A stretch of 64,000 nt of DNA from the NCBI GenBank assembly GCA_009914755.4, contig CP068257.2, positions 15,808,001 through 15,872,000 of the forward strand, in the 5' to 3' direction. Shown piece by piece: positions 831 to 61,636 of this stretch (position 1 is the stretch's first letter; the number at the start of each line of letters is the position of its first letter). Under the pieces are notes generated by a model. It worked only from the letters and a program-made list of their open reading frames with translations, was not told the DNA's origin and ran no database searches. Source of the DNA: the human T2T-CHM13v2.0 reference genome, Homo sapiens. A program made the translations under genes and the position numbers.

Positions 831-1225
<395 letters not shown>

Positions 1226-1769
1226 TTAGCTGTTATTTTTACTGTTTTCCCCTATATTCTTTTATATGTTTAGTGTCTTACAGGAAGAGGTTAAAAAGTG
1301 CAGGGGTGGGGGCAATAGGGGACAGGGAGAATATAATAAAGGATTAAGTAATTAAATAGAAGATAGGAAAGGGTGCTCCAAAAGCAAGTGTCCGTTCCAG
1401 AACTTGCTTCCTAGTAAAGCAAGGTCCTCAGGCCATCTTCTCTGAACCTTGATTCCACTGTATTTTCAGTGTGCGAACAGTGATTTAAATCAGTCCATTT
1501 TAGCTGTCAAACTCATACCGTTTGAGAAGATTCATAACCCCAGAGAGAGCGCTTACGAAGGAGGGATTAACATGGCAAACACATGCGCAAACTCCAGATG
1601 GCTGAGCTGAGACATGTTTGGGGGAAAGTCTCTCTCCTGACTGTGGAGGAAATGCTATATGGGAGGAAAACTAGTGTCTTTTGTGATAAAGGATGGTCAG
1701 TTAGTCACTGGGTCACAAAGCCTGTTCTACAAATCATTCAACTTAAGAAGCATTTGGGACCCCTCGAAA

Positions 1770-1862
1770 GTTTTTTTGTTTGTTTTTGAGACGAAGTTTC
1801 TCTCACTGTTGCTGTGGCTGGAATACAACGGTGCAGTCTCGGCTTACCGCAACCTCCCGCGC
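1770..1862 (-). mobile_element. Truncated Alu/FLAM-like fragment abutting the tRNA 3' flank
   Basis: A poly-T then tttgagacgaagtttctctcactgttgctgtggctggaatacaacggtgcagtctcggcttaccgcaacctcc, matching the reverse-complement Alu right end. It ends at the tRNA trailer. Confidence 0.6.
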
Positions 1863-1869
1863 ACGGTCC

Positions 1870-1873
1870 AAAA
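1870..1873 (-). terminator. Pol III T4 terminator for the tRNA-Gly gene
   Basis: A TTTT run on the minus strand 14 nt after the tRNA 3' end. Confidence 0.6.
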
Positions 1874-1886
1874 CACATTTTCGTGC

Positions 1887-1957
1887 TGCATGGGCCGGGA
1901 ATCGAACCCGGGCCTCCCGCGTGGCAGGCGAGAATTCTACCACTGAACCACCCATGC
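1887..1957 (-). tRNA. tRNA-Gly (anticodon GCC), 71 nt. Minus-strand sequence GCATGGGTGGTTCAGTGGTAGAATTCTCGCCTGCCACGCGGGAGGCCCGGGTTCGATTCCCGGCCCATGCA
   Basis: The reverse complement of 1887-1957 is identical to the canonical human tRNA-Gly-GCC sequence as I remember it. A-box TGGTTCAGTGG and B-box GGTTCGATTCC are present (B box on the + strand as ggaatcgaacc at 1898-1908). The anticodon is at 1923-1925 (ggc on +). A TTTT Pol III terminator lies ~14 nt downstream on the minus strand (aaaa at 1870-1873 on +). Confidence 0.9.
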
Positions 1958-2071
1958 ACCGATAGAAGAGTTGGGGAAAAGCAGTAACATGATTGGAACG
2001 CGACTGGAAGGTGTTCTTTGTTGCAAGAGACTAGATAATGGAGAAGGAAGATGATAATATTTTGGTCACTT

Positions 2072-4061: not shown

Positions 4062-4345
<284 letters not shown>

Positions 4346-59170: not shown

Positions 59171-59559
59171 CTCTTCTTCAATTCATTTCTGTTATGGAAC
59201 TGTCGCGGCACTACAAAGTCTCTATGTAGTTATAAATAAACGTTATCTGGAAGAGCAGCCGACAACAACTTTCAAGATCTCCAATTCCCCGACCCCACAC
59301 TCCAACTGACGCCTTCAACCACAACTACTGAGCCCCACTTTCAAAGCTCACTCACTAATATTGGATAATAGTTGTCTGCCTACCTCAGCCTCCGGAGTAG
59401 CTGGGACTATAGCGTCTTACTAGCCAGCTTCAGGGCTAGAATAGCCTTTCTGTGCAAGTGGAAAAAACCTCAGGTATTTCCCAAATCGGTAGCTGCAGAG
59501 GGGCTCTATCCCTACCAGAGATGGAGAAAAGCCCTCTCGCGCTTTTTATGTCAGCCAGA

Positions 59560-60700
59560 GCGGCTCGTTAAGAGAGCGAAGGCCAGGGGCTGCACAGGTC
59601 GCATCCCGTGAGCATGAGGTCAGAGAACCTGCCCCTGGGGCAAACCGCGAGGGGTGGGACGGGTGGGTGCAGGCGGGGCGGAGGGTAGGAGCCGCCCTAG
59701 TGGCGGCCCCTGGGAGTGTCCCGTGCCTCGCCTTAAAGGAGGGCGCCAACGCAATTTCAGTATGTGGGAGACGGGCTGCCCCACCCCCGCGCGCAAAACC
59801 CTGGTTTAGCTTAAGGGATGGAGGCGGGGACCCCTGCGCAGGCTTGCGGCGTGGGAGGCGGCCGCCCGCGACCTACGACGCCGCGCGCCGGGAGGCTGAG
59901 AGTTCGGCGCCGGGAGGGTCCCGGGGACAGAAGAGCGCCTCGCCCGGTTGCCAAGGCAACCCCACGCGGCTGGAGAAGCCGGCGCTCGCAGCCCGGCCCG
60001 GGCCGCTGCCGGAAGTGACGCGAGTTCACCTGCCGAGCGGGGGCTGGGAGGAGGGGCGGAGGGTGCAGAGGTGCCGCCGCCGCCGCGAGCCAGTCGGGAG
60101 CGCGCGAGGCGCGGGGAGCCTGGGACCAGGAGCGAGAGCCGCCTACCTGCAGCCGCCGCCCACGGCACGGCAGCCACCATGGCGCTCCTGCTGTGCTTCG
60201 TGCTCCTGTGCGGAGTAGTGGGTGAGTAGGGGCCATGGGGTCCTCAGCACCCGCCCAGCCCGGGGGCGCTCGCTGCGCGCGGCCACCCAGGAACAATGGG
60301 GCGTGGGGGAGGGGGCGGGCGCGATTTGGGGGCGCTGCTGCAGGGGCGGCGGGGCGGGCAGAATTGCACAGGGGCGCTTTTGCTGGGCCGGGCGCTCCTG
60401 GAGCCGTCCCGTAGGGAGCCGCGCAGGGCGCGCGGAGTGCCCGGGGACGGAGCCCTCGGCGGGGGGTGGAGGCGGAGGGGCTCGGGCGCGGCGTGTCGGG
60501 TGCGCCTCGCAGCTCTCCCATAGCATTCTCTGCCCCGGTGCGGGCTTGCCTTTCTTTGCTCTCGCCGTCTCCCTTGTCAGCCTTCGTGTCGGTTCTCTCC
60601 AGCGTTACCCGATTTCAAAAACCTTGGGCGGCGAGTTTTCAGGTGTCGAGTCGCCCAGGCGGGGAGGCTGAATTGCAAACGCCATTATTCAATGGACATG
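59560..60700 (+). promoter_or_regulatory. CXADR: CpG island / TATA-less promoter spanning 5' flank, 5'UTR, exon 1 and start of intron 1 of CXADR. Contains GC boxes (GGGGCGG at ~59675-59681 and ~60053-60059), an ETS-type CCGGAAGTG motif at ~60009-60017 and an adjacent TGACG half-CRE.
   Basis: Very high G+C and CpG density, unlike the rest of the window. Sp1-type GC boxes and the ETS core are read directly. No TATA box upstream of the ATG. Confidence 0.7.
60179..60221 (+). CDS. CXADR: Coding part of first exon of the coxsackievirus and adenovirus receptor gene: ATG in Kozak context gccaccATGG, encodes MALLLCFVLLCGVV plus the first nt (G) of the next codon, then splice donor GTGAGT at 60222; phase-1 intron follows
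   Basis: Peptide MALLLCFVLLCGVV matches the remembered N-terminus of human CXADR (MALLLCFVLLCGVVDFARS...). It sits in a CpG island with strong Kozak and consensus GT donor. The reading frame closes with a stop 6 nt into the intron, as expected for an exon end. Confidence 0.8.
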
Positions 60701-61636
60701 GAGCTGCCCGGTGCCTCGGATCGGCCAGGCTACCTCTAGGAAAGAGGCGCTGAGCGAACGCCAGCCTGGACGGTGTTAGTCTCCTGGAAGCAGCTCGCCC
60801 AGGCAGGAGCTGCTAACCAGACGCGCATTGTGAAGGAGACCGTGGAAAATCAAAAGTGGGTTCCTGCAAAAATGTAGCATTGGTTTCTGCAGTCCTTGGG
60901 CGAAGTGCAAAGGAGAATTCAGTGACCTCGTTTTTGAGTTTGTAATGAGTCGTTCATTTTGGAGATAAGACGGGCTGAGTTGTACAGGGTAATTGCTAGA
61001 GGATTTGCCAAGTGCGTTTGTCGACTGCTCCTTTCTCTGGGAGGGGAAAAAAGGCATGTGAAAAATGCGTGGACCATTAGGAGGCGTAATCATTTTGACA
61101 CTTTAAAAAACGGATTTTCCATGTCGGTGTTTTAACCAACTGATCTTGTTTGTCAAACTAAGCACTTGCTGCGTTTTATAACCAAATAATTCATTTTTAA
61201 AAATCCGTAGGTGGGATCCTAGGAGGCGCACTTAGTATAGCCTCTGGAAGGGTAATTTTTTGTTGTTAGGTGCTCTGAAGCAGGATCTAGTGGCCCTTTC
61301 TGTTGGGATGGCTCTCTGCTTCCTGTTGAAATGTTAATTCCATTGTTGGATGCCACAGCTGTGAGCATTACTCATGGGATCAACATTCTATTAGCAAGTC
61401 TAATCTTCGATCTGAGCCTATAGCACTACCTCCACCTTTTTGATATATATCATTTAGACTTGGCGGGCTGAAATGTCCAAAGTAAGCCTTCCGGAGAAGA
61501 TGAAGGGTCATAGAACCAGTTTACAGGTACATTCCCACCTTTCTTTCTTTTTTTTCTTTTTTTTGTCTAGGCCGAACCTGAAGATGAAGTTGAGAACACA
61601 GTGTGTTCTCTGGGAAAAAAAAAAAAATAGTTTTAG

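What the first reader, a model, noticed from the sequence alone, without database searches (positions are those of the whole stretch)
1770..1957. Isolated canonical tRNA-Gly(GCC) gene in a repeat-dense region ~58 kb upstream of a protein-coding promoter
The minus strand of 1887-1957 is an intact 71-nt tRNA-Gly-GCC with consensus A and B boxes and a T4 terminator, so it is very likely an active Pol III gene and not a tRNA-derived SINE. An Alu/FLAM fragment (1770-1862) sits immediately downstream of the terminator, so the tRNA trailer and terminator context were remodelled by retrotransposition. Active tRNA genes often act as chromatin boundaries, and one sitting between a gene-poor repeat field and the CXADR promoter is worth a look.
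Basis: partly seen in the sequence, partly recalled or inferred. Interest (0 to 1): 0.55.

Follow-up and report, generated by a model that had tools for sequence, protein, structure and literature searches.

The report
Known human tRNA-Gly-GCC gene, chr21
The feature is a real, intact and published-as-active glycine tRNA gene (human tRNA-Gly-GCC-1-5 on chromosome 21, 58 kb upstream of CXADR) followed by an old Alu scrap, so it is an ordinary, already catalogued gene and not a discovery.

Summary
The minus strand of 1887-1957 is a perfect 71-nt tRNA-Gly(GCC): Rfam tRNA scores 66.6 bits against a threshold of 29. All 21 cloverleaf pairs are standard. The A box, B box, discriminator A and a T4 run 14-17 nt downstream are all present.

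The window is human chr21 upstream of CXADR; the exon-1 peptide starts at 60179. The gene is already catalogued as tRNA-Gly-GCC-1-5 (older name chr21.tRNA2-GlyGCC), GtRNAdb high-confidence, tRNAscan score 80.9. Published POLR3A (RPC1) ChIP-seq puts strong peaks on it and classes it 'housekeeping', meaning Pol III-bound in iPSC, neural progenitors, neurons and cardiomyocytes.

- **Alu piece.** The piece at about 1771-1857 (same strand, 76-79% identity) is the 3' end of the right Alu monomer plus its A-tail. It is not a FLAM (free left Alu monomer).
- **Terminator.** The leader ATCGGT, the trailer GCACG and TTTTGG at +14..+19 are shared with paralogous copies in the chr1q23.3 tRNA array. The terminator is therefore ancestral and was not remodelled by the Alu.

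The chromatin-boundary idea has no locus-specific support and cannot be tested here. Novelty: already known. Interest: low.

The parts
1887..1957 (-). tRNA-Gly(GCC) gene body, 71 nt, no intron, no encoded CCA. It is human tRNA-Gly-GCC-1-5 (chr21.tRNA2-GlyGCC).
   Evidence: ARAGORN. Rfam RF00005 at 66.6 bits, full length. 21/21 standard pairs. The hg19 and hg38 coordinates and the position-3 reference allele match the literature.
1940..1950 (-). A box (TGGTTCAGTGG, tRNA positions 8-18), the internal Pol III type 2 promoter element bound by TFIIIC.
   Evidence: Regex match to TRGYNNANNGG-type consensus. The function is inferred from established knowledge of type 2 promoters.
1898..1908 (-). B box (GGTTCGATTCC, tRNA positions 50-60), the high-affinity TFIIIC site.
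   Evidence: Exact match to GGTTCGANNCC.
1923..1925 (-). Anticodon GCC (tRNA positions 33-35 of the 71-nt gene, canonical 34-36).
1958..1963 (-). 5' leader ATCGGT, identical in the paralogous chr1q23.3 copies and in a second locus type (L013/L019); L016 has ACCGGT. Probably contains or abuts the transcription start.
   Evidence: The 100% identity block with L028/L006 spans 1963..1882; flank listing. The start-site role is inferred.
1870..1886 (-). 3' trailer GCACGAAAATGTG followed by the T4 terminator (TTTT at 1873-1870, +14..+17). GCACG and the position of TTTTGG are shared with paralogs.
1771..1857 (-). 5'-truncated Alu remnant: the last ~68-82 nt of the right monomer plus an A-rich tail (1771-~1790). 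It lies in the same orientation as the tRNA, is 76-79% identical to the window's Alus, and has no recognisable target-site duplication.
   Evidence: Alignment A1, local alignment and TSD search, BLAST.

Best explanation
Window 1887-1957 (minus strand) is the annotated human nuclear gene tRNA-Gly-GCC-1-5 (hg38 chr21:17,454,789-17,454,859, minus strand). It is a standard Pol III type 2 gene.

Inferred mechanism, from established knowledge:
1. TFIIIC binds the internal A and B boxes.
2. TFIIIB (BRF1) is placed upstream.
3. Pol III starts a few nucleotides upstream, in or near the conserved ATCGGT leader.
4. Pol III terminates mainly at the T4 run 14-17 nt past the 3' end.
5. RNase P and RNase Z trim the precursor, CCA is added, and GlyRS charges the tRNA to read GGC/GGU codons.

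Shown: the sequence is intact and identical to the other copies of this isodecoder, and published ChIP-seq finds Pol III on this locus in four cell types.

The Alu remnant downstream is an old, 5'-truncated right-arm insertion that landed beyond the ancestral terminator. It is most likely a passenger.
For: - **Intactness.**
- **Genomic placement.** The CXADR exon-1 peptide starts at 60179.
- **Identity with the catalogued gene.** PMC6779403 Table 1 lists tRNA-Gly-GCC-1-5 as GtRNAdb high-confidence, with a variant chr21:18827175 T/C at tRNA position 3. The window has + strand T at 1955, which is position 3. The older name chr21.tRNA2.GlyGCC appears in PMC4581457.
- **Activity.** The PMC10791582 supplements give coordinates chr21:17454788-17454859 (-), score 80.9, RPC1 peak scores 6687 and 3886 in two iPSC replicates, 1/1/1/1 in the table of peak calls, and class 'Housekeeping'. 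The paper defines that class as Pol III occupancy in all cell populations, after filtering out genes with ambiguous read assignment.
- **Selection on the body only.** Against 28 metagenome-derived loci carrying the same 71-mer, identity stops at -6 and +5, apart from the positional TTTTGG.
Against: No evidence found points against it.

Caveats:
- I could not run tRNAscan-SE myself; the score of 80.9 is taken from a paper's supplement.
- Mature Gly-GCC-1 tRNA cannot be assigned to this copy rather than the chr1 array copies, because the sequences are identical. Locus-specific evidence is therefore ChIP occupancy, not RNA.
- The MFE fold of the naked sequence is not a cloverleaf. This is common for tRNAs and is outweighed by the covariance-model score.
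Confidence: 0.97

Rival explanations
1. The tDNA works as a chromatin boundary or enhancer blocker. TFIIIC and Pol III bound at the tRNA gene would separate the Alu-rich, gene-poor proximal region from the CXADR regulatory domain. This would come in addition to making tRNA.
For: General literature only. tRNA genes are enriched at topological-domain borders and can act as insulators in some contexts (PMC5607496 background). A tDNA cassette gave barrier activity on a human artificial chromosome (PMC3771377). This locus is constitutively Pol III-bound, which is a precondition.
Against: No locus-specific data were found in any search. The tested insulator cassettes used two or more tRNA genes per flank, and this is the only tRNA gene in 64 kb. 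It sits 58 kb from the promoter. No CTCF core motif was found in the window. In PMC5607496 the tDNA contacts examined are bridged by CTCF sites.
Confidence: 0.08
2. The tRNA and the sense-oriented Alu remnant form one functional read-through transcription unit. Leaky termination at T4 would give a tRNA-trailer-Alu RNA with its own role, for example as a source of a small RNA.
For: T4 is the minimal terminator, and the next T>=4 on the coding strand is only at +217 (window 1670-1667). Any read-through would therefore transcribe the whole Alu piece in sense. Orioli et al. report that human Pol III termination is leaky even at canonical terminators (PMC3141230).
Against: TTTTGG at the same offset is conserved in paralogs that have no Alu downstream, so the unit ends there by design. 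The Alu piece is 21-24% diverged, has no recognisable TSD and carries only generic Alu sequence. No Rfam family other than tRNA reaches its gathering score in the tRNA-Alu interval.
Confidence: 0.05
3. It is a tRNA pseudogene, a tRNA-derived SINE or a retro-copy that merely looks intact.
For: It is isolated in an Alu-rich stretch, and a retroelement piece lies next to it.
Against: It has 0 mismatches to the functional isodecoder. It has a full-length covariance-model match with no broken pair. Upstream leader and trailer homology with paralogs shows it was copied as DNA with flanks: a retro-copy of mature tRNA would lack the leader and trailer and would carry CCA. Pol III occupancy is published. 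The A-tail belongs to the Alu piece, not to the tRNA.
Confidence: 0.01

Closest known systems
Human tRNA-Gly-GCC-1-5 (GtRNAdb; older name chr21.tRNA2-GlyGCC)
   Same: It is this gene. The chromosome, strand, 71-nt length, anticodon, coordinates relative to CXADR and the position-3 reference allele all agree.
   Different: Nothing differs.
tRNA-Gly-GCC copies in the chr1q23.3 7.3-kb tRNA VNTR (Darrow & Chadwick 2014, PMC4041453)
   Same: The 71-nt body is identical, as are the 6-nt leader ATCGGT and the 5-nt trailer GCACG, and TTTTGG sits at +14..+19. The L028 unit carries Glu-CTC, Gly-TCC, Asp-GTC, Leu-CAG and Gly-GCC at a 7,355-bp period, matching the published unit.
   Different: Those copies are clustered, GC-rich, CTCF-bound and copy-number variable (9-43 units per allele). 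The chr21 copy is single, lies in AT- and Alu-rich DNA, and shares no other flank homology. It is therefore the copy of this isodecoder that is uniquely mappable by its flanks.
Alu right monomer / 5'-truncated Alu insertions (versus FLAM)
   Same: The piece has 76-79% identity to the last ~82 nt of the window's full Alus, including the right-arm-specific block and an A-rich tail.
   Different: It is not a free left monomer. It has no left arm, no internal A/B box region of the Alu, and no detectable target-site duplication.
tDNA insulators (Raab et al. 2012, cited from my own knowledge; HAC test in PMC3771377)
   Same: It is an active TFIIIC/Pol III-bound tRNA gene lying between a gene-poor region and a Pol II promoter.
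   Different: It is a single gene, not a cluster, and lies 58 kb from the promoter. No functional or 3D-genome evidence exists for this locus.

Membership tests
Eukaryotic cytosolic tRNA gene (Pol III type 2) | Cloverleaf-compatible sequence scoring above the tRNA covariance-model threshold | tested here: met
   RF00005 at 66.6 bits against 29, model positions 1-71/71. 21/21 standard pairs. ARAGORN call.
Eukaryotic cytosolic tRNA gene (Pol III type 2) | Internal A box and B box at canonical positions | tested here: met
   TGGTTCAGTGG at positions 8-18 and GGTTCGATTCC at positions 50-60.
Eukaryotic cytosolic tRNA gene (Pol III type 2) | Oligo-T terminator (T>=4) shortly downstream on the coding strand; no encoded CCA | tested here: met
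   TTTT at +14..+17. The trailer starts GCACG, not CCA.
Eukaryotic cytosolic tRNA gene (Pol III type 2) | Pol III / TFIIIB occupancy in vivo | not testable with these tools
   Not computable here. Published RPC1 ChIP-seq peaks at chr21:17454788-17454859 and class 'Housekeeping' (PMC10791582 supplements; definition).
tRNA-Gly-GCC isodecoder 1 (functional Gly acceptor) | Anticodon GCC, discriminator A73, and sequence identical to the expressed isodecoder | tested here: met
   Anticodon and 3'-terminal A. Exact 71-nt identity with the chr1q23.3-array copies recovered from metagenome contigs. That A73 and C35/C36 are GlyRS identity elements is from my own knowledge.
FLAM (free left Alu monomer) | Homology to the left Alu monomer, which lacks the right-arm-specific insert | tested here: not met
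   The fragment aligns across the block that the left monomer (Alu2073_left) lacks. It maps to positions 213-294 of a 294-nt Alu.
Alu retrotransposon insertion (5'-truncated) | Alu 3' end with an A-rich tail | tested here: met
   79% identity over 1856-1771, ending in AAAAACAAACAAAAAAA.
Alu retrotransposon insertion (5'-truncated) | Flanking target-site duplication | tested here: not met
   The best flank-to-flank local match is 5 nt, which is chance level. This is expected for an element diverged by more than 20%, so it is weak evidence either way.
tDNA chromatin insulator / domain boundary | Enhancer-blocking or barrier activity, or a contact-domain border at the site | not testable with these tools
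   No locus-specific report was found. There is no CTCF core motif in the window.

The most novel reading that the evidence does not exclude
The lone, constitutively Pol III-bound tRNA-Gly-GCC-1-5 gene has a second, non-translational role. Either it acts as a TFIIIC-dependent boundary that shields the CXADR domain from the Alu-rich gene desert, or it yields read-through tRNA-Alu transcripts through its minimal T4 terminator.
Probability: 0.08. Interest if true: 0.4.

Novelty: already known. Interest (0 to 1): 0.08.

Why it matters
It matters little as a discovery. The gene is in GtRNAdb and HGNC-style catalogues, and its Pol III occupancy has been measured.

Three modest points follow from it:
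- It is a copy of the Gly-GCC-1 isodecoder that lies outside the copy-number-variable chr1q23.3 array. It can therefore be followed by unique flanks in ChIP-seq or pre-tRNA data.
- A rare A3G allele at this locus creates a G3:U70 pair, the alanine identity element. It could mis-charge a glycine tRNA (PMC6779403).
- It lies on chromosome 21, so its dose rises in trisomy 21.

None of these points is new.

Tried and rejected
- **Pseudogene or SINE origin.** Rejected on exact identity to the functional isodecoder, shared leader and trailer, and the absence of CCA.
- **Terminator created by the Alu.** MAFFT extended the Alu homology into TGGACC next to the T-run. However, the paralogs carry TTTTGG at the same offset without any Alu, and the scored local alignment starts only at +31.
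- **Target-site duplication search.** The best match between the Alu's flanks was 5 nt.
- **Orthologue search.** A metagenome scan with the 71-mer was meant to recover orthologues of the chr21 locus. None of the 28 loci shares flanks with the window. 25 of them are the chr1q23.3 unit, and three (L013, L019, L016) are other loci of unknown source.
- **CTCF core motif.** 0 hits in the window, with 0.03 expected, so the search is uninformative rather than negative.
- **Other Rfam hits near the locus.** These are mir-1268, mir-3135, Metazoa_SRP, mascRNA and Plastid-ycf2. All near-locus matches are below their gathering scores; the SRP and miRNA matches lie on the window's Alus, and the mascRNA and Plastid-ycf2 matches overlap the tRNA itself.
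- **Supplements not available.** The supplements of Orioli 2011 and Thornlow 2020 are not held as text, and those of two other papers held nothing on this gene.
- **MFE folding.** Folding the bare 71-mer gives a non-cloverleaf structure with z=-2.0. I disregard this in favour of the covariance model.

Full report
**What is in the sequence**

Reading 1500-2300 and its reverse complement shows the 71-mer GCATGGGTGGTTCAGTGGTAGAATTCTCGCCTGCCACGCGGGAGGCCCGGGTTCGATTCCCGGCCCATGCA on the minus strand of 1887-1957.

- ARAGORN reports a single tRNA in the whole 64-kb window: tRNA-Gly(GCC), minus strand, 1885-1958.
- The Rfam tRNA model matches 1957->1887 over its full length at 66.6 bits (gathering score 29, E=2.6e-12), with no non-canonical pair flagged.
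- Projecting the model's structure onto the sequence gives 21/21 standard pairs.
- The A box TGGTTCAGTGG is at positions 8-18 and the B box GGTTCGATTCC at positions 50-60. The anticodon GCC is at 33-35, the 3'-terminal discriminator is A, and no CCA is encoded.
- The 71-mer is unique in the window even with three mismatches allowed, with none expected by chance.
- On the coding strand the trailer reads GCACGAAAATGTGTTTTGG, so a T4 run lies at +14..+17 (window 1873-1870). The next T>=4 lies at +217.
- The thermodynamic fold of the naked RNA is not a cloverleaf. This is usual for unmodified tRNA sequences and does not weigh against the covariance-model result.

**Where the window comes from**

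The CXADR exon-1 peptide MALLLCFVLLCGVV is encoded from 60179 on the + strand and stops at a splice-donor-like GT. It sits inside a CpG island: GC 0.69-0.77 and CpG o/e 0.85-0.88 at 59.5-60.5 kb. The tRNA is therefore 58.2 kb upstream of the CXADR start codon on human chromosome 21. Alu sequence covers 32% of the window. Rfam's SRP model picks up many Alus.

**It is an already named gene**

PMC6779403 (Table 1) lists tRNA-Gly-GCC-1-5 as a GtRNAdb high-confidence gene with a variant chr21:18827175 T/C (hg19) at tRNA position 3. In the window, position 3 is 1955, where the + strand base is T, so register and strand fit.

The supplements of PMC10791582 give hg38 chr21:17454788-17454859, minus strand, 71 nt, tRNAscan score 80.9. 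The older name chr21.tRNA2.GlyGCC is used in PMC4581457.

By simple offset, window position 1 corresponds to about hg38 chr21:17,452,903. That places the CXADR ATG near 17,513,081. This is my inference and was not checked against a genome browser.

**Is it active?**

In PMC10791582 the locus has RPC1 (POLR3A) peaks with scores 6687 and 3886 in two iPSC replicates. It is scored 1/1/1/1 in the table of peak calls and is classed 'Housekeeping'.

[quoted passage not shown] That count was taken after removing genes with 25% or more ambiguously assigned reads. RPC1 and BRF1 peak sets overlapped almost completely.

Gly-GCC-1-5 is the only Gly-GCC-1 copy in the per-gene table excerpts I saw. This fits the filtering of the other copies, which lie in a tandem array. 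The occupancy evidence is therefore specific to this locus. Small-RNA papers also quote 5' fragments under this gene's name. Those reads cannot be assigned to one copy, because the sequences are identical.

**Paralogs, flanks and the terminator**

A scan of metagenome contigs with the exact 71-mer returned 28 loci.

- 25 of them share one flank type. L028 holds two copies 7,355 bp apart, and each unit also carries Glu-CTC, Gly-TCC, Asp-GTC and Leu-CAG.
- This matches the 7.3-kb chr1q23.3 tRNA VNTR described in PMC4041453: five tRNA genes per unit and 9-43 units per allele. These contigs are probably human DNA contaminating the metagenomes.
- Against these loci the window is 100% identical over 82 nt only, at 1963..1882. 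That block is ATCGGT, the tRNA and GCACG. BLAST finds no other flank similarity.
- TTTTGG sits at +14..+19 in the window and in the chr1 unit, and at +15..+20 in the other two locus types, L013/L019 and L016.

Two conclusions follow:
1. The body is held invariant while the flanks are unrelated, which is the pattern expected for a functional tRNA gene.
2. The short leader, the start of the trailer and the terminator are ancestral to the duplication. The Alu did not create or remodel the terminator.

**The Alu piece**

Aligned with Alus of the same window, the reverse complement of 1765-1870 matches the 3' part of right monomers. The match includes the block GGAGGTTGCAGTGAGCCGAGAT..., which the left monomer lacks.

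A scored local alignment covers 1856-1771 at 79% identity and ends in the A-rich tail. BLAST maps 1774-1857 (minus) to positions 213-294 of a 294-nt Alu at 76% identity.

The piece is therefore an old, 5'-truncated right-arm remnant lying in the same orientation as the tRNA, and it is not a FLAM. No target-site duplication is recognisable, as expected at this divergence.

If the T4 signal leaks, Pol III would run through the Alu piece in sense, because the next T>=4 is at +217. Leaky termination is documented in general by PMC3141230. Nothing indicates that this matters here.

**The boundary idea**

The literature supports a general link. tRNA genes are enriched at domain borders and sometimes act as insulators (PMC5607496). 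A cassette of two tRNA genes per flank protected a transgene on an artificial chromosome (PMC3771377). PMC4041453 proposes a boundary role for the chr1 array on the basis of CTCF binding.

I found nothing specific to the chr21 locus. It is a single tDNA 58 kb from the promoter, and the window has no match to a CTCF core motif, although only 0.03 matches were expected. The idea remains an untested speculation, and I give it about 8%.

**Verdict**

The main interpretation, an active Pol III tRNA gene, is right, and the literature has already established it. Two details are wrong: the FLAM label and the remodelled terminator. The chromatin-boundary suggestion is unsupported. The feature is the known gene tRNA-Gly-GCC-1-5. 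Novelty: already known. Interest: low.

Noticed in passing
window 1958-1963, 1882-1886 and 1868-1873 (minus strand); L001-L028: The paralogous Gly-GCC copies share short flank motifs even though the rest of the flanks are unrelated. These are a leader (C)ATCGGT (ACCGGT in L016), a trailer start GCACG (in the chr1q23.3-array copies only) and TTTTGG at +14/+15. This suggests either DNA-level duplication with minimal flanks or selection on the start site, leader and terminator.
   Followed up: partly
window 1955 (tRNA position 3): PMC6779403 reports a rare allele here (hg19 chr21:18827175 T/C, frequency 0.012) that turns A3:U70 into G3:U70. That pair is the major AlaRS identity element, so the variant is a potential Gly->Ala mistranslating tRNA. 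The window carries the reference T.
   Followed up: partly
L028 1-14780 (and 24 similar loci): Metagenome assemblies, including a human skin metagenome, contain contigs of the human chr1q23.3 7.3-kb tRNA VNTR, with Glu-CTC, Gly-TCC, Asp-GTC, Leu-CAG and Gly-GCC per 7,355-bp unit. This is host-DNA contamination. No contig of the single-copy chr21 locus was recovered.
   Followed up: partly
L013 1-2810, L019 1-2720, L016 1-2422: Three metagenome contigs carry the identical 71-nt Gly-GCC with different GC-rich flanks. L013 and L019 have Leu-CAG 1.1 kb away, against 1.6 kb in the human unit. They are probably from another vertebrate host; the source organism was not determined.
   Followed up: no
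window 59500-61000: A CpG island (GC up to 0.77, CpG o/e 0.85-0.88) contains the CXADR exon-1 start codon at 60179 (+).
   Followed up: partly
window 964-1015, 4090-4149, 4166-4217 and others: Sub-threshold Rfam matches to mir-1268, mir-3135, mir-1285 and mir-619, plus Metazoa_SRP matches (four of them above gathering score further along the window), all lie on Alu elements. They are Alu-derived look-alikes, not separate genes.
   Followed up: partly
window 1751-2000: CpG observed/expected is 0.98 in the 250 bp holding the tRNA and the Alu remnant, against 0.15-0.36 in the neighbouring bins. This is compatible with germline hypomethylation around an active tRNA gene, but much of the signal comes from the tRNA body itself.
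   Followed up: no
window 1-64000: Alu sequence covers about 32% of the window, with a low of 10% at 40-48 kb and highs of 43-45% at 24-32 kb and 48-56 kb.
   Followed up: no
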